Positions 4,012 to 59,441 of a stretch of 64,000 nt of DNA are shown piece after piece (the first letter of the stretch is position 1; each line of letters starts with the position of its first letter). Position numbers and translations under genes: made by a program. Location of the stretch: IMG/VR virus record IMGVR_UViG_2579779105_000001. One strand, 5' to 3'. The notes beneath the pieces were generated by a model. That model did no database searches. It had not been told where the DNA came from and was given only the letters and a program-made list of their open reading frames with translations. The DNA is from a virus. Taxonomy: Duplodnaviria; Heunggongvirae; Uroviricota; Caudoviricetes.

Positions 4012-4031
4012 GTGTGAGATGTAGCGTATTT

Positions 4032-4055
4032 GCCCATCTTCGGGTGGGCTTTTTT
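4032..4055 (+). terminator. rho-independent terminator-like hairpin
   Basis: GCCCATC-TTCG-GGTGGGC stem-loop followed by TTTTTT. Confidence 0.45.
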
Positions 4056-4335: not shown

Positions 4336-4514
4336 CCATTGCTTGATGGTATATGGGAAAGTTTGTTGGTTACGGGTATATCCCGTCATGCTGAAGGCGC
4401 TAATCACGCTGGAAGCCAGGGTTATGCATCCCCTGTTACTGAATTGCAGCCAGGGCGCGGTGCGCCGAAAAGCATACGGAGGTGGAAGCCCTCGCCGGAG
4501 ACGTACCCGGCAAG

Positions 4515-4590
4515 TGATGGTGTAGCTCAGCGGTTAGAGCGGTTGACTGTTAATCAACGGGTCGATGGTTCAAATCCATCCACCATCGCC
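4515..4590 (+). tRNA. tRNA-Asn (anticodon GTT)
   Basis: Manual cloverleaf: acceptor GATGGTG/CACCATC, D-arm TAGCTCAGCGGTTAGAGC, anticodon loop CTGTTAA, T-loop GGTTCAAATCC, 3' CCA encoded. Confidence 0.85.
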
Positions 4591-4592
4591 AA

Positions 4593-4668
4593 TGCCGGTT
4601 TAGCTCAGTTGGTAGAGCGCCTGCCTTGTAAGCAGGATGTCAGCGGTTCGAGTCCGTTAACCGGCACC
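4593..4668 (+). tRNA. tRNA-Thr (anticodon TGT)
   Basis: Acceptor GCCGGTT/AACCGGC, anticodon stem-loop CCTGC-CTTGTAA-GCAGG, T-loop GGTTCGAGTCC, CCA encoded. Confidence 0.85.
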
Positions 4669-4677
4669 AACACAACA

Positions 4678-4750
4678 GGTAAGGGTATTTTGCGACGTCG
4701 GAGATCGCCGTGCTTGGCAGAGGGTTCGAATCCCTACGAAGTACCCTTAC
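4678..4750 (+). pseudogene. degenerate tRNA-like element
   Basis: 10-bp perfect outer stem (GGTAAGGGTA / TACCCTTACC) encloses a T-arm-like AGGGTTCGAATCCCT hairpin, but the T-arm is not adjacent to the acceptor stem and no D or anticodon arm fits. Confidence 0.3.
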
Positions 4751-4882
4751 CGTTGTGATGAAGTGCAGCTCTTTGAAGCAACCAGAAGATAAGCATCTGG
4801 CTTCACAACATAAACCGCAGGAACGACCAATAAACGGTAGTCCGTATGGAGAACACCCCGTTGAGGAAGAGGCCTGGCCGGA

Positions 4883-4993
4883 ACCGTAACCGGCACCACA
4901 ACGTTGAGAACATTGGCGTAACGGGATCATATCCCAATCTATGAATAAATGTCGCGAGGCAGCGTGACAACCAGTGTTCTCAACGTTGTGGTG
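4883..4993. repeat. 19-bp perfect inverted repeat (CACCACAACGTTGAGAACA and its reverse complement) around a 73-nt loop
   Basis: Read directly from the sequence; the loop contains a GGGATCATATCCC palindrome with a GATC site. Confidence 0.6.
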
Positions 4994-5133
4994 GATTCGC
5001 AGACTGATGCGATAGCTTTCTTGGATGTTAGGGAAATGCGGCCGCAAATCTTCCCTTTCGCGAGCGGTGATCGTCCGTAGTCCTAATTGGCTGCACCGTA
5101 TGCCGGAGATTCAGTACCGGCCACCACAACGGC

Positions 5134-5220
5134 CGGAGAGTAGGGAGCATGGTGCTCAAGCGGTCTTGAAAACCGTCCCATTGCGCAAGCGATGATGGTT
5201 CGATTCCATTACTCTCCGCC
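5134..5220 (+). tRNA. tRNA-Ser-like (anticodon TGA), class II with long variable arm; slightly non-canonical D-arm
   Basis: Acceptor GGAGAGT/ACTCTCC, anticodon arm GCGGT-CTTGAAA-ACCGT (near-identical to the E. coli tRNA-Ser(UGA) arm), T-arm GATGG-TTCGATT-CCATT, discriminator G, CCA encoded. Confidence 0.5.
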
Positions 5221-5484
5221 AGCGCAACGTTAAGAGTATTTGGCTAATTAAGCGAATGCCGGAAGCAGAACCGGATCACCAAATGCGTACAGGCGTCATC
5301 GCCGCCCAGCCAGCCAAGTGCTCTTACCATTGCGGTGAATGCGGCTAAGCGCACGCGGAACAGTTAAAACAATCCTTATTAGTGGTTAAATCAAACATCC
5401 CGGCGTTAATTGTTAACTGGTTAACGTCACCTGGAGGCACCAGGCACCGCAGCTTTTTTATTCGTTAAATAATGGAGTGAGAGG

Positions 5485-5703
5485 ATGCAGAACAATCCGA
5501 ACAAATGTCGAACGCTATGGGTGCGGCTATATATTTATGTCGTCCTCTGTTTGATTGTGTCACTGGTTCTGTATGTTTGGCTTTTGCCAAATATGATCTC
5601 ATCTGACAGCACAATACTTGTATTGTTGGGAGTCCTTCTCGCGCTCATTTACCCGGCTTTTGCAGTAGTCTTTTTTCGCAAAAAAATCCAGGAAATTGAT
5701 TAA
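5485..5703 (+). CDS. small hydrophobic membrane protein (two predicted TM helices)
   Basis: 72-aa ORF with hydrophobic segments; its stop overlaps the start of the next gene (ATTAATG). Confidence 0.45.
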   Translation: MQNNPNKCRTLWVRLYIYVVLCLIVSLVLYVWLLPNMISSDSTILVLLGVLLALIYPAFAVVFFRKKIQEID

Positions 5704-6530
5704 TGAAAAAAACGTTGATTAGTGCAGCGATTATTTTTGGTTCTTTATGTCTGACCGGATGCGACCGGGTAGAACCAGGCAATGTAGGGATCAAAGTAAA
5801 TAAGCTGGGGGATGATAAAGGTGTCGGCGAAGTAGTTGGCGTTGGTCGCTACTGGACAGGCTGGAACACAGAAGTTTATATCTTCCCGACCTTTAAGCAA
5901 ATGAAGACCTATGATGATCCGTTCAGCTTCCAAATGAGCGACGGGACAACAATTGGTTACCACATTGGTGTAGCTTACAAGGTTGATCCGGCAAAAGTCA
6001 CAACTGTATTTCAGACCTACCGCAAAGGCGTGGATGACATTACCGACACCGACCTGCGCCAGAAGATTGCCGACGCACTTAACCGACTGGCCAGCAAAAT
6101 GACCACCGACAAATTTATCGACGGTGGCAAGTCTGAACTGCTGGATGCAGCTCTTAAAGACATCCAGGAAGAAATGACGCCCATCGGTATTCAGGTAATG
6201 AGCCTCTCATATGTGGGCAAGCCGGAGTACCCGCCAACCGTTATCGACAGCATTAATGCCAAAGTCACGGCGAACCAGAAAACTCTGCAACGCGAGCAGG
6301 AAGTCAAGCAACGCGAAGCAGAAGCCAACATGCTGCGCGCAGAAGCTGCCGGACAGGCCGATGCCATTCGCACAAAAGCCCAGGCTGAAGCTGATGCCAT
6401 TCGTTTACGCGGTGAGGCTCTGCGCCAGAACCCCGGCGTTATGGAGTTGGAAGCGATCAACAAATGGAACGGAACGCTACCGCAGTATATGACCAGTAAT
6501 ACCGCTGTTCCGTTTGTTCCGGTGAAATAA
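5703..6530 (+). CDS. SPFH/band-7 (HflK/C-stomatin-like) domain lipoprotein
   Basis: Lipoprotein signal with LTGC lipobox; SPFH-like core and a C-terminal Ala/Glu/Arg-rich coiled coil (AEANMLRAEAAGQADAIRTKAQAEADAIRLRGEA). Confidence 0.6.
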   Translation: MKKTLISAAIIFGSLCLTGCDRVEPGNVGIKVNKLGDDKGVGEVVGVGRYWTGWNTEVYIFPTFKQMKTYDDPFSFQMSDGTTIGYHIGVAYKVDPAKVTTVFQTYRKGVDDITDTDLRQKIADALNRLASKMTTDKFIDGGKSELLDAALKDIQEEMTPIGIQVMSLSYVGKPEYPPTVIDSINAKVTANQKTLQREQEVKQREAEANMLRAEAAGQADAIRTKAQAEADAIRLRGEALRQNPGVMELEAINKWNGTLPQYMTSNTAVPFVPVK

Positions 6531-6684: not shown

Positions 6685-6760
6685 GGCCCTTTAGCTCAGT
6701 GGTTAGAGCTGGCGACTCATAATCGCACGGTCACCGGTTCAAGTCCGGTAGGGGCCACCA
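6685..6760 (+). tRNA. tRNA with CAT anticodon (Met, or Ile2 if lysidine-modified)
   Basis: Acceptor GGCCCTT/AGGGGCC with one G-U pair, D-arm TAGCTCAGTGGTTAGAGC, anticodon loop CTCATAA, T-loop GGTTCAAGTCC, CCA encoded. Confidence 0.8.
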
Positions 6761-58394: not shown

Positions 58395-58688
58395 TGAGGG
58401 CATTTTTTACATCATCAATCCATCAGCAATGAAGGCATTCTTTACATATTTCAATAATATCAATCAGTTAACACAGTGAATGATAATAAAAAAGCGCAAT
58501 AAGAATGCACGATACGCACGATATTGGTTGAGGGCGATTTTTACATAATCCTTACATATCAATATGTTATATAAAAACACAACTTGCTAATAACGAGATA
58601 CATGCAATTAAGATGTAAAAATTGCCCTCAATTGCCGATCGTTAAGGGCAAATTCTACACCTTGAGAGGGGTGTAAAAATTGCCCTTA
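58395..58688. repeat. incA-like iteron cluster downstream of repA (at least 5 iterons, both orientations)
   Basis: TGAGGGC(A/G)(T/A)TTTTTACA-type units at about 58395, 58529, 58612 (inverted), 58643 and 58669 (inverted). Confidence 0.6.
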
Positions 58689-59441
58689 AGACTGCTGATA
58701 GGTAAATTTTATCCTGGTAACTTTGCCGCCTTCCGTCACCTCTGAGAAGACTATTTTCATTTTTGTATTTTTTTCAATCTCTGCTACAGCCTTCGTTAAA
58801 AAACTTCTCTTAAATTCGGCATACCGCTGATAACTTTTTGGTAACCCATAACGCTCCCGCATCCATTCGACGCCAAGTATGGCAAAGCCGCTTCCATCAT
58901 CCTTCCTGTACTGGCATAAGGACTCATAAAGCCGCATAGAATAAGGATTTGTAAGGCGAGATACTTCGGTAAAATTCAGCCTTGTGAATCTCTTATCAAG
59001 CAGAGTAAAAAACGGCATGAGATATGGATTAAGATGAATAATGTAAGTCCCGCGCCGTGGTGAATAGGCATCCTTAATCATCCAGGGATAAGACTCATAA
59101 CTGTCTTCTGATTCGGTCGATTCATCAGGGTTATATATCGTAACTTTCTTCTCGCTAAGACCTGAAATGGCCTTACGAATATCCTTGCTGGCTTCAGCAG
59201 AGGGCAAATTATACATCTCTGCATATTCGTTGACCGTCAACTCACAGGCACCTGAACCAAGAACGCCATCCTTAGAAGCATAGCGAAGTCTTCCCACCAC
59301 AATAAACAACAGTCGCTTTTGGTCGCGAGTCAGGTGATAAGCAGCCTCCGTGATCTCATTGGCTTGTGCCAGACTACGACTAATAGGTGTCGCTGACTCA
59401 ATCAGGCTGACGGCTTTTGCTGTTAATTCCGCTCTGTTCAT
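58686..59441 (-). CDS. repA: iteron-binding replication initiator RepA
   Basis: Start set at MNRAEL; flanked by origin iterons upstream and control iterons downstream, as in P1/RepFIB-type replicons. Confidence 0.7.
   Translation of the reverse strand: MNRAELTAKAVSLIESATPISRSLAQANEITEAAYHLTRDQKRLLFIVVGRLRYASKDGVLGSGACELTVNEYAEMYNLPSAEASKDIRKAISGLSEKKVTIYNPDESTESEDSYESYPWMIKDAYSPRRGTYIIHLNPYLMPFFTLLDKRFTRLNFTEVSRLTNPYSMRLYESLCQYRKDDGSGFAILGVEWMRERYGLPKSYQRYAEFKRSFLTKAVAEIEKNTKMKIVFSEVTEGGKVTRIKFTYQQS

What the first reader, a model, noticed from the sequence alone, without database searches (positions are those of the whole stretch)
4658..5220. tRNA array with non-canonical members and duplicated tRNA 3'-end fragments
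Besides canonical tRNA-Asn and tRNA-Thr, the array has a degenerate tRNA-like hairpin (4678-4750) with a T-arm-like core, a tRNA-Ser(TGA)-like gene with an atypical D-arm (5134-5220), and repeated copies of the tRNA-Thr 3'-end-like sequence CCGGC(A/C)CCACAACG at 4879-4892 and 5117-5130. This points to past recombination among tRNA genes or to reuse of tRNA-like ends as processing signals.
Basis: seen in the sequence. Interest (0 to 1): 0.45.

Follow-up and report, generated by a model that had tools for sequence, protein, structure and literature searches.

The report
Phage tRNA array with structured-RNA spacers
In this P1/D6-like plasmid-phage, the stretch between the tRNA genes is not tRNA debris: it holds repeated, conserved folded-RNA modules (one carrying a tRNA-like "elbow") and ends in an unusual but widespread phage serine tRNA with an 8/4 instead of a 7/5 stem layout.

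Summary
The window is a D6-like member of the phage P1 family (98% identity). tRNA-Asn and tRNA-Thr are canonical.

The "tRNA-Ser-like" gene (5135-5221) is a non-canonical (8/4) allo-type tRNA-Ser(UGA). In 67 distinct phage homologues, base 8 covaries with the base after a 4-bp T stem. It is already annotated as tRNA-Ser or tRNA-OTHER.

The "degenerate hairpin" is the tip of a long covarying stem (H1, 4671-4757). That tip keeps D-like and T-like loops but has no anticodon arm.

The "duplicated tRNA-Thr 3' ends" are the last hairpin plus the closing strand of two folded domains (S1/M3 and S2). Relatives occur in many unrelated enterobacterial phages without tRNAs, including N-gene leaders of lambdoid phages. 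A third domain is an STnc100-like sRNA. The "CCA" is not conserved in homologues, so a tRNA-end mimic is unlikely.

The spacer is three H-S units in all, two of them between tRNA-Thr and tRNA-Ser, and these units are gained, lost and reshuffled at their junctions.

Processing by RNase III, P and E into tRNAs and small RNAs is inferred, not shown.

The parts
4494..4511 (+). GCCGG-AGACGTAC-CCGGC hairpin 5 nt upstream of tRNA-Asn
   Evidence: Pattern search. It has the same stem as the two hairpins inside the spacer.
4516..4591 (+). Canonical tRNA-Asn(GUU)
   Evidence: ARAGORN; Rfam RF00005 at 74.5 bits. Corresponds to trnA of P1.
4594..4669 (+). Canonical tRNA-Thr(UGU). Its 3' end (4657-4674) is the first copy of the repeat.
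   Evidence: ARAGORN; Rfam at 74.9 bits; repeat family D1.
4671..4757 (+). H1: long stem made of a CACAAC/GUUGUG base plus 15 bp. Its tip is tRNA-elbow-like, with a D-like hairpin at 4692-4708 and a T-like arm at 4720-4735, and has no anticodon arm.
   Evidence: Fold z = -4.7. In 18 distinct homologues, 8 stem pairs show compensatory changes while the tip is invariant. 43 variants were found in IMG/VR. No tRNA or tmRNA call, and no Rfam hit better than E = 0.78.
4752..4809 (+). S1 (the M2 motif). Closing helix P1 is GUUGUGAUG/CUUCACAAC. Inside it lie AAGUGCA, a short hairpin P2, CAA, and hairpin P3 (CCAG-AAGAUAAGCAU-CUGG).
   Evidence: The 16-mer core occurs in at least 120 IMG/VR contigs. In 25 distinct sequences 92% of cells are paired, 9 of 16 pairs change on both sides, and 0 of 500 shuffles reach this. 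It lies upstream of N genes in lambdoid contigs.
4810..4903 (+). M3 module ending in hairpin GCCGGAACCGTAACCGGC (4877-4894) followed by CACCACAACG. Holds repeat copy 2 (4890-4903).
   Evidence: 87.8% identical to an intergenic stretch of Citrobacter phage phiNP. Hairpin found; repeat.
4894..4993 (+). H2: 23-bp near-perfect stem (4894-4916 with 4971-4993). Its tip contains the T-arm-like GGGAUCAUAUCCC.
   Evidence: Inverted repeat I1, 96% complementary. Fold -55 kcal/mol, z = -8.8. The same tip sits in a different stem in P1.
4984..5131 (+). S2 domain. P1 is CGUUGUGGUGG (4984-4994) paired with CCACCACAACG (5121-5131). P2 hairpin is at 4997-5012, the middle is variable, and the terminal hairpin GCCGG-AGAUUCAGUA-CCGGC is at 5102-5121. 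Holds repeat copy 3 (5117-5131).
   Evidence: Inverted repeat I6, 11 of 11. In 16 distinct homologues 97.4% of cells are paired and 4 pairs change on both sides; 0 of 500 shuffles reach the observed paired fraction, double-change cell count or covariation score, and 8 of 500 reach the count of pairs with a double change. The middle section differs completely between phages.
5135..5221 (+). Non-canonical (8/4) tRNA-Ser(UGA). It has an 8-bp acceptor stem GGAGAGUA/UACUCUCC, a 4-bp T stem AUGG/CCAU, a short Sec-like D hairpin, a long variable arm, G73, and an encoded CCA.
   Evidence: ARAGORN. tRNA-Sec model at 46.6 bits. In 67 distinct homologues, base 8 pairs with the base after the 4-bp T stem in 88% against 52% in shuffles, with 0 of 2000 shuffles reaching this; the 7/5 alternative shows no covariation. 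Annotated tRNA-Ser or tRNA-OTHER in RefSeq.
5223..5336 (+). H3: long stem (GCGCAACGUUAAGAGUAUUUGGC with GCCAAGUGCUCUUACCAUUGCG) with a conserved tip.
   Evidence: Fold z = -4.2. The tip, together with tRNA-Ser, is 83.5% identical in rV5-like lytic phages, which have a different closing stem.
5330..5451 (+). S3: STnc100-like domain. P1 is UGCGGUG/CACCGCA and the terminal hairpin is CCUGG-AGGCA-CCAGG.
   Evidence: Rfam RF02076 at 40.4 bits against a gathering score of 47. Fold.

Best explanation
This segment is the untranslated, heavily folded tRNA and small-RNA part of the early 'ban' operon leader of a P1/D6-family plasmid-prophage; in P1 and P7 the operon is annotated as C1-repressed.

Contents:
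- Two ordinary tRNAs (Asn and Thr).
- One functional but non-canonical (8/4) tRNA-Ser(UGA).
- Three copies of a two-part RNA module, around and between the tRNAs.

The module:
- Part H is a stem of about 20 bp that presents an exchangeable tip. In H1 the tip is a tRNA 'elbow' mimic, with D-like and T-like loops and no anticodon arm.
- Part S is a compact multi-hairpin domain closed by GUUGUGGUG/CACCACAAC. S domains are relatives of an element in the N-gene leader of lambdoid phages and of the prophage sRNAs STnc100/PasD.

The sequences read as duplicated tRNA-Thr 3' ends are the last hairpin and closing strand of S-type domains. They resemble the tRNA-Thr end because every unit, tRNA or S domain, abuts the same CACAAC junction that opens the next H stem.

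Shown here: the structures, their covariation, their spread across phages, and module gain, loss and shuffling at the junctions.

Inferred:
- The long transcript is cut at H stems by RNase III and at tRNAs by RNase P and RNase E, releasing tRNAs and stable small RNAs.
- The shared junction motifs are the homology that lets modules recombine.
For: Identity and context:
- 98.3% identical to phage D6 and 95% to P7.
- P1 and P7 records place the region downstream of C1-controlled Pban operators and upstream of tciA, trnI and ban.

Structure:
- H1, H2 and H3 fold far better than shuffles (z = -4.7, -8.8 and -4.2).
- The H1 stem covaries while its tip is invariant.
- S1/M2 covaries strongly. S2 helices are 97% paired with compensatory changes.

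Spread:
- Each module recurs at 75-88% identity in unannotated intergenic DNA of unrelated phages, co-directional with the flanking genes.
- M2 lies about 33 nt upstream of N genes that carry three different arginine-rich motifs. It sits inside the outer stem that lambda also has.

Modularity:
- P7 has a different H1 tip in the same, compensated stem. P1 carries the H2 tip in another stem.
- Most P1-like contigs join H1 directly to an S2-type domain.
- Breakpoints in 709 E. coli records fall at module junctions.

tRNA-Ser:
- 8/4 covariation.
- (8/4) tRNA-Ser has been described in phages (PMC5389517).

Not protein-coding:
- PGAP calls no CDS over the spacer.
- The minus-strand 'plp' ORF changes its ends between variants and reads antisense through tRNA-Thr.
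Against: - No expression or cleavage data were available, so RNase III, P and E processing rests on analogy. The analogues are the lambda N leader, T7 early RNAs, rRNA operons and DicF, all from my own knowledge.
- The 3' strand of each H stem overlaps the 5' strand of the next S closing helix (4752-4757; 4984-4993). Both cannot be fully formed at once, and nothing here settles which forms in vivo.
- S1 and S2 get no hit from the Rfam STnc100 model. Their kinship with STnc100 rests on shared architecture and short motifs (GUGAAU, a terminal CCNGG hairpin, a closing CACC strand).
- An intrinsic-terminator-like hairpin at 4032-4049 lies upstream, so how much transcription reaches the array is unknown.
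- The 'plp' ORF stays open in all close relatives. Its ratio of synonymous to non-synonymous changes, about 1:1 on roughly ten sites, does not exclude coding.
Confidence: 0.6

Rival explanations
1. The spacer is decayed tRNA genes and recombination scars. On this view an older, larger tRNA array degenerated, leaving a T-arm relic, fragments of the tRNA-Thr 3' end and a crippled tRNA-Ser, none of them functional.
For: - T-arm-like sequences at 4720-4735 and 4923-4936, and an 18-nt similarity to the tRNA-Thr end.
- A relative (Ro157c2YLVW) has an extra tRNA-Tyr in the array. Cyrano has Thr and Ser adjacent, with no spacer.
- Units come and go between relatives.
Against: - The H1 tip is nearly invariant across 43 variants while its stem changes with compensation. 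That is the signature of selection on a folded RNA.
- The same modules occur in phages without tRNAs.
- The tRNA-Ser family keeps every helix through compensatory changes in 67 variants.
- The 5' half of each 'fragment' hairpin (GCCGG) would have no reason to persist in a scar.
Confidence: 0.13
2. The GCCGG-loop-CCGGC-ACCA elements are free-standing mimics of the tRNA-Thr acceptor end ('microhelices'). They would serve as RNase P or CCA-end processing signals.
For: - The stem equals the first five base pairs of the tRNA-Thr acceptor stem and is followed by A-CCA.
- By my own knowledge, the P1/P7 C4 antisense RNA precursor is an RNase P substrate (Hartmann et al. 1995).
Against: - In homologues the 'ACCA' reads ATCA (42 P1-like loci), GCCA, or lacks a C (phiNP, Sasha). 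These changes covary with the 5' strand of the closing helix.
- In S2 the whole CCACCACAACG is paired with 4984-4994 (repeat I6).
- The hairpin loop (AGAUCAGCA) is itself conserved, unlike a generic microhelix.
Confidence: 0.12
3. The region encodes proteins on the minus strand (Plp, a 'putative lipoprotein', and Upl, as annotated in the P1 record), and the apparent RNA structures are incidental.
For: - A 135-aa minus-strand ORF (4640-5047) is open here and in relatives.
- P1 and RCS47 records annotate plp and upl.
- Synonymous and non-synonymous changes are about 1:1.
Against: - The ORF's C-terminus is the antisense of tRNA-Thr.
- Its ends differ between the P1, P7, D6 and SJ46-type variants.
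- P7's H1 tip is 19 nt shorter, and a unit is 229 nt. Neither length is a multiple of three.
- PGAP calls no CDS in hundreds of RefSeq plasmids.
- The modules are conserved in other phages through helix-preserving changes and non-triplet indels.
Confidence: 0.06
4. The repeats are att-type duplications left by integrase-mediated insertion of small elements into the 3' end of tRNA-Thr.
For: Direct repeats of a tRNA 3' end are the classic footprint of tRNA-targeted integration. The copies are evenly spaced.
Against: - The inserts are only about 229 nt, and no integrase gene was seen among the annotated genes flanking the array in related phages.
- The similarity does not extend into the T loop.
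- The same ends occur far from any tRNA in other phages.
Confidence: 0.03

Closest known systems
(8/4) tRNA-Ser / allo-tRNA (Mukai et al. 2017, NAR 45:2776; PMC5389517)
   Same: - A 12-bp acceptor branch split 8/4.
- Long variable arm and G73.
- A Sec-like short D hairpin.
- Picked up as a near-miss by the tRNA-Sec covariance model.
- Serine anticodon.
- Reported from bacteriophages.
   Different: - The anticodon stem is 5 bp, not extended.
- The D loop here is 3-5 nt.
- The family is found in coliphages (P1/D6-like, Cyrano, rV5-like). The paper names 'unknown bacteriophages' from a macroalgal-surface metagenome as where it first found such tRNA gene clusters, and later alpha-proteobacterial phages.
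- Two bases after position 8 covary with the first two bases of the variable region. I could not check this against the paper's figure.
STnc100 (Rfam RF02076) / PasD prophage sRNAs
   Same: - S3 (5330-5451) aligns to the STnc100 model, sharing the closing helix xxGGUG/CACCxx, GAAU, internal hairpins and a terminal CCNGG-loop-CCNGG hairpin.
- Prophage origin (bioRxiv 10.64898/2026.05.13.724894).
   Different: - S3 scores 40.4 bits, below the gathering score of 47.
- S1 and S2 are not detected by that model at all.
- S1 and S2 sit inside a polycistronic leader with no terminator of their own.
Lambda N-leader stem (RNase III processing site between nutL and N)
   Same: In lambdoid contigs the M2 motif sits inside the same outer stem (GCUUUGG.../...CCAAAG) directly upstream of the N ribosome-binding site. 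Lambda has that stem with a different interior. A long duplex of about 20 bp is what RNase III needs (my own knowledge).
   Different: - Lambda itself lacks the M2 interior.
- In this window there is no N gene, and the element lies between tRNAs.
- RNase III cleavage was not tested here.
tRNA-like domains without a decoding function (bacterial Y RNA YrlA, tmRNA tRNA-like domain, mascRNA)
   Same: The H1 tip has a T loop plus a GG-containing D-like loop on a long helix and no anticodon arm. That is a tRNA elbow mimic.
   Different: - The Rfam YrlA model gives no hit on H1. The mascRNA hit is only 14.2 bits at E = 5, which is not significant. ARAGORN finds no tmRNA.
- No search for an Rsr/Ro gene was made in the window.
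Small stable RNAs in phage tRNA clusters (T4 species 1 and 2 RNAs), recalled from memory
   Same: Non-tRNA structured RNAs encoded among phage tRNA genes and matured from the same transcript.
   Different: No sequence comparison was made. This is a resemblance only.

Membership tests
Canonical tRNA (Rfam RF00005) | Cloverleaf scoring above the gathering score of 29 bits | tested here: met
   Asn scores 74.5 bits and Thr 74.9 bits. This applies to these two genes only.
Canonical tRNA (Rfam RF00005), applied to the Ser-like gene 5135-5221 | 7/5 cloverleaf above the gathering score | tested here: not met
   Not listed at gathering score. The best clan hit is tRNA-Sec at 46.6 bits. The 49:65 pair that a 7/5 fold requires shows no covariation: 46 of 67 paired, equal to the shuffle mean.
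(8/4) allo-type tRNA-Ser | 8-bp acceptor stem plus 4-bp T stem | tested here: met
   The pairing of base 8 with the base after the T stem is A:U in 35, G:C in 15, U:G in 5, U:A in 3 and C:G in 1. That is 59 of 67 paired against a shuffle mean of 34.8, with 0 of 2000 shuffles reaching it.
(8/4) allo-type tRNA-Ser | Long variable arm and G73/U73 (SerRS identity), with a serine anticodon | tested here: met
   The variable-arm hairpin shows compensatory changes. G73 occurs in 57 of 67 and U73 in 9 of 67. The anticodon is UGA.
(8/4) allo-type tRNA-Ser | Sec-like D stem-loop (long stem, tetraloop) and a longer anticodon stem | tested here: inconclusive
   The D hairpin is 4-5 bp with a 3-4 nt loop in most members. 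The anticodon stem is 5 bp, and the sixth pair would be A-C.
(8/4) allo-type tRNA-Ser | Charged by SerRS and used in translation | not testable with these tools
   Needs an aminoacylation assay or tRNA-seq.
tRNA gene or pseudogene, applied to hairpin 4678-4751 | Four-arm cloverleaf with an anticodon arm | tested here: not met
   There is no ARAGORN call even at a relaxed score and no RF00005 hit at E up to 10. Only 9-12 variable bases lie between the D-like and T-like arms.
YrlA / Y RNA (RF02553) | Match to the family model | tested here: not met
   The only weak hit (19.9 bits) spans the real tRNA-Asn and tRNA-Thr, not H1. Nothing is found in 4668-5134.
STnc100 sRNA (RF02076) | Score at or above 47 bits | tested here: not met
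   S3 scores 40.4 bits, E = 5e-7, covering model positions 31-147 of 206, which is below the gathering score of 47 although the alignment is clear. S1 and S2 give no hit.
RNase III processing stem | Duplex of about two helical turns in a transcribed region | tested here: met
   H1 has 6+15 bp, H2 has 23 bp and H3 has about 19 bp.
RNase III processing stem | Cleavage by RNase III | not testable with these tools
   Needs end mapping in rnc+ and rnc- hosts.
tRNA-targeted integrative element (att duplication) | Repeats flank an element that carries an integrase | tested here: not met
   The units are 229 and 228 nt and hold no ORF of that kind.

The most novel reading that the evidence does not exclude
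The H-S units are an undescribed, widespread class of phage RNA 'cassettes'. In this reading a constant scaffold is made of the junction CACAAC / GUUGUGGUGAAU, a long stem and a closing helix. The scaffold displays exchangeable cargo, such as tRNA-elbow mimics, variable sRNA seed regions and the invariant M2 core. The cassettes are swapped between P1-like, lambdoid, P22-like, 9NA-like and other enterobacterial phages.

The M2 core, which sits just before N genes, would be a new protein- or ligand-binding regulatory RNA. The tRNA-elbow cargo would be a decoy or recruiter for tRNA-handling enzymes or for tRNA-targeting defences.
Probability: 0.25. Interest if true: 0.75.

Novelty: new variant of a known kind. 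Interest (0 to 1): 0.5.

Why it matters
- It replaces two doubtful protein annotations in the reference P1 genome (plp and upl) with conserved structured RNAs.
- It shows that the odd 'tRNA-Ser/tRNA-OTHER' carried by hundreds of E. coli P1/D6-like plasmids and by lytic rV5-like phages is an (8/4) tRNA. The evidence is clear covariation, which gives an accessible E. coli system for studying non-canonical tRNA folds.
- It links three things previously treated separately: phage tRNA arrays, the N-leader stem of lambdoid phages and the STnc100/PasD prophage sRNAs. All three share one modular architecture whose junction motifs explain how such RNA modules spread.
- The M2 motif is invariant over about 30 bases, covaries in its helices and has no Rfam family. 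It is a concrete candidate for a new regulatory RNA.

Tried and rejected
- **Rfam, whole window at gathering score, then two relaxed scans of the region.** Nothing was found for 4670-5134 beyond T-arm look-alikes. Group I introns, ribozymes, riboswitches, YrlA, tmRNA and C4 are all absent.
- **boxA/boxB (nut site) reading of M2.** Rejected because the GCUCUUU is not conserved and real nut sites lie upstream in the same leaders, with three different boxB types.
- **CsrA-sponge idea (many GGA triplets).** Not pursued, because the conserved positions are not GGA.
- **Hairpin-ribozyme resemblance of CAACCAGAGAA/GUUGUGG.** Judged superficial, since there is no helix 4.
- **Coding test on 'plp' by synonymous against non-synonymous counts.** Too few independent sites, so the result is inconclusive.
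- **Literature.**
  - Searches for the motif strings found nothing relevant.
  - Searches for P1 plp/upl and for P1 transcriptomes found nothing useful.
  - The P1 genome paper is not held.
  - The N-leader search gave only Nus-factor papers.
- **Scaffold-pattern hit at 58643-58688.** Turned out to be an unrelated inverted repeat.
- **ARAGORN's 3-bp D stem for the Ser tRNA.** Most homologues do not support it; a 4-5 bp hairpin at offset 2 fits better.
Full report
**What the window is.** The region 4450-5450 is 98.3% identical to Escherichia phage D6 and 95% to P7. Phage P1 itself matches only in pieces. In the P1 and P7 records the equivalent DNA lies downstream of the C1-controlled Pban operators and a 'dicF-like region'. 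It lies upstream of tciA/terB, a tRNA(CAU) and the ban helicase gene. The finding therefore sits in the untranslated leader of an early operon of a P1-family plasmid-prophage.

**Checking the observation.**
- ARAGORN finds tRNA-Asn (4516-4591), tRNA-Thr (4594-4669), tRNA-Ser(tga) (5135-5221) and a tRNA(cat) at 6685-6760.
- At gathering score Rfam lists only Asn, Thr and the CAT tRNA.
- In a relaxed scan the Ser-like gene is best matched by the selenocysteine tRNA model, at 46.6 bits against a gathering score of 47.
- Nothing calls a tRNA at 4678-4750. That stretch is nevertheless a very stable hairpin (z = -4.7) with a T-arm-like GAGGGTTCGAATCCCT.
- The 14-mer is at 4890-4903, not 4879-4892. 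The second copy (5117-5131) has one extra base.
- Together with the real tRNA-Thr end, the copies are spaced 229 and 228 nt apart.
- Each non-tRNA copy is the 3' half of a GCCGG-loop-CCGGC hairpin. Three such hairpins occur in 64 kb against 0.4 expected.

**The Ser-like gene is an (8/4) tRNA.** A scan of IMG/VR for its anticodon arm and T loop, together with loci fetched earlier, gave 67 distinct tRNAs after parsing.
- The base after the 7-bp acceptor stem ('position 8') pairs with the base that follows a 4-bp T stem in 59 of 67 sequences. Five pair types occur: A:U 35, G:C 15, U:G 5, U:A 3 and C:G 1.
- Shuffles average 34.8, and none of 2000 reaches 59.
- The pair a normal 7/5 fold would need (49:65) is no better than shuffled, at 46 against 46.1.
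- Acceptor, D-hairpin and variable-arm helices all show compensatory changes between the window, Cyrano, rV5-like phages and metagenomic phages.
- G73, a long variable arm and the UGA anticodon fit serine identity.
- This matches the '(8/4) tRNA-Ser' included in the allo-tRNA group by Mukai et al. That work reports these tRNAs from bacteriophages and notes that they surface as near-misses of the tRNA-Sec model (PMC5389517).
- The gene is already annotated: 'tRNA-Ser... AA not called by tRNAscan-SE' in D6, tRNA-Ser or tRNA-OTHER by PGAP, and counted among four tRNAs of D6-like plasmids (PMC6799933).
- It is therefore a new member of a known kind, not a degenerate gene.
- One extra regularity I could not place: the two bases after position 8 covary with the first two bases of the variable region. 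The pairs are GG:CC, CC:GG, GC:GC and CG:CG, 53 of 67 against 33 expected.

**The 'degenerate tRNA-like hairpin'.** Forty-three distinct variants of this element were recovered.
- Its outer stem differs in sequence but stays paired. Examples are GGUAAGGGUAUUUUG/CGAAGUACCCUUACC here, AAUGAGAGCACUGUG/CUCAGUGCUCUCAUU, and GGCGAGGAUACUGUG/CGCAGCGUCCUCACC. Eight pairs have double changes in 18 sequences.
- The tip is almost invariant. It comprises a GCGA-[CGUCGGAGA]-UCGC hairpin with a GG, a short variable linker, and AGGG-UUCGAAU-CCCU.
- That is a tRNA elbow (D loop plus T loop) on a long helix with no anticodon arm.
- It is not a detectable tRNA, tmRNA or Y RNA.
- P7 has a different tip in the same stem, with a U-A to C-G compensation. 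The P7-type tip turns up after S2-type domains in other P1-like contigs. Tips are therefore exchangeable cargo.

**The repeats and the rest of the spacer.** A distant search showed that 4670-5134 is a mosaic. Each piece recurs at 75-88% identity in unannotated intergenic DNA of unrelated phages, in the same direction as the neighbouring genes. The phages are Enterobacter BUCT554, Sashavirus, P22-like SPN9CC, Citrobacter phiNP and Klebsiella BUCT_49532.

Reading those loci side by side gives a grammar:
- H is a long stem that opens with CACAAC and closes with GUUGUG.
- H is followed by S, a domain that starts GUUGUG(G/A)UG-(G/A)A(U/G)-hairpin and ends with a CCNGG hairpin plus CACCACAAC.

The window has H1-S1-M3, then H2-S2, then tRNA-Ser, then H3-S3.

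S1 (the M2 motif):
- It has a 16-base core present in at least 120 viral contigs.
- It shows excellent covariation: 92% paired, 9 of 16 pairs with double changes, 0 of 500 shuffles.
- In lambdoid contigs it lies about 33 nt before N antiterminator genes of lambda, P22 and 21 type, downstream of their own boxA/boxB. It is therefore not a nut site.
- It sits inside the outer stem that lambda also has. By my own knowledge, in lambda that stem is the RNase III site of the N leader.

S2:
- The 5' 30 nt and 3' 35 nt are conserved around a completely variable middle.
- Its helices are 97% paired, with some compensatory changes.

S3 aligns to the prophage sRNA family STnc100 at 40.4 bits, below the gathering score. 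STnc100 and PasD are described as prophage-encoded base-pairing sRNAs of still unclear role.

**What the 'tRNA-Thr 3' ends' are.** Copy 3 (5117-5131) is the 3' half of S2's terminal hairpin plus the strand that pairs 11 of 11 with 4984-4994 (repeat I6). Copy 2 (4890-4903) is the end of M3 and the start of the H2 stem.
- In homologues the supposed ACCA reads AUCA (42 P1-like loci), GCCA or ACA. These changes track the opposite strand, GUGAUG against GUGGUG.
- A conserved CCA tail is therefore not what is being kept; a helix is.
- The likeness to tRNA-Thr comes from a shared layout. Every unit, whether a tRNA or an S domain, is followed by (C)CACAAC, the first strand of the next H stem. This holds for tRNA-Thr here, for tRNA-Ser here (…GCCA-GCGCAAC) and for tRNA-Asn in contig L019.

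**Recombination.**
- P1 lacks the Ser tRNA and carries the H2 tip in another scaffold.
- Most P1-like contigs join H1 directly to an S2-type domain.
- Cyrano has Thr and Ser adjacent.
- Among 709 E. coli records, match boundaries cluster at window positions 4741-4747, 4767, 4813, 4894, 4973 and 5009, which are module junctions.

**Protein-coding rival.** P1's record annotates plp and upl on the minus strand, and a 135-aa ORF is open here. Four points argue against it:
- Its C-terminus is the antisense of tRNA-Thr.
- Its ends differ among variants.
- The indels between variants are not multiples of three.
- PGAP calls no CDS there.

Substitution counts are too few to be decisive.

**Mechanism.**
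- Shown: the folds, their conservation, and modular exchange.
- Inferred: the leader is transcribed from Pban. RNase III cuts the roughly 20-bp H stems, and RNase P and RNase E free the tRNAs. The S domains and H tips then persist as small RNAs. Precedents, from my own knowledge, are the lambda N leader, T7 early RNA, rRNA operons, DicF maturation and RNase P processing of P1 C4 RNA.
- An unresolved point is that each H 3' strand overlaps the next S closing helix (4752-4757; 4984-4993), so the two cannot fully coexist. This could mean ordered folding and cleavage or a switch; I cannot tell which.

**Verdict.** The finding is real and only partly as interpreted. One element is an already annotated but structurally interesting (8/4) tRNA-Ser. 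The rest is a modular structured-RNA array related to known prophage sRNAs and leader stems. Neither the architecture nor the M2 core matched any Rfam family or any paper in the searches I ran, and their function remains untested.

Noticed in passing
window 5330-5451: STnc100-like sRNA domain (Rfam RF02076, 40.4 bits against a gathering score of 47). In this window, but not in D6, P7 or P1, it is followed by a run of six T. It is the third S module of the array.
   Followed up: partly
window 4752-4809; loci L008, L022-L025, L037, L048, L050, L076 and others: The M2 motif (GAAUUGCAG, a small covarying hairpin, then CAACCAGAAGAUAAGC..CUGGC) lies about 33 nt upstream of N antiterminator genes of three different specificity types in lambdoid and P22-like contigs. 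It has no Rfam family. It is a candidate cis-regulatory RNA of N expression.
   Followed up: partly
window 4029-4049: Intrinsic-terminator-like hairpin GCCCATCTTCGGGTGGGC followed by T6, about 470 nt upstream of tRNA-Asn. The P1 record marks a 'dicF-like region' at the equivalent place. H-S arrays in phiNP, BUCT554 and several IMG/VR contigs also end in DicF-like sequences (UUUGGCGG...CCGCCCUUUUU).
   Followed up: no
window 6685-6760: ARAGORN labels the tRNA with anticodon CAT as Met. The P1 and P7 records annotate the orthologue as tRNA-Ile2 (lysidine-dependent, ileX-like).
   Followed up: no
window 5485-6530: Downstream of the array this element carries a 72-aa ORF and a 275-aa lipoprotein-like ORF in place of the tciA/tciB genes of D6, P7 and P1. 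The 275-aa ORF is 98% identical to the 'putative serine protease' of phage vB_EcoM-Ro157c2YLVW, and its sequence begins with the lipobox-like MKKTLISAAIIFGSLCLTGC.
   Followed up: partly
67 phage tRNA-Ser(UGA) homologues (loci L132-L229 and others): In the (8/4) tRNA-Ser family the two bases after position 8 covary with the first two bases of the variable region (GG:CC, CC:GG, GC:GC, CG:CG). This implies a 2-bp helix that encloses both the D hairpin and the anticodon arm, which is unlike the canonical cloverleaf.
   Followed up: partly
window 5222-5316; L006 1592-1672: tRNA-Ser and about 85 nt downstream of it (the tip of H3, which includes a GCCGG-AAGCAGAA-CCGG hairpin followed by AUCACCA) travel together. 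They are 83.5% identical between P1/D6-like temperate phages and lytic rV5-like phages, while the closing stem differs.
   Followed up: partly
window 58642-58689: Unrelated perfect-armed inverted repeat TTAAGGGCAAATT...AAATTGCCCTTAA in an AT-rich intergenic region, next to a 262-aa minus-strand ORF. A half-copy, AAAATTGCCCTCAATTGCC, lies just upstream. It may be an operator or a terminator.
   Followed up: no
window 4640-5047 (minus strand); P1 record plp/upl: The reference P1 annotations Plp ('putative lipoprotein') and Upl overlap tRNA-Thr and the structured modules. PGAP does not reproduce them in RefSeq E. coli plasmids, so they are probably annotation artefacts.
   Followed up: partly
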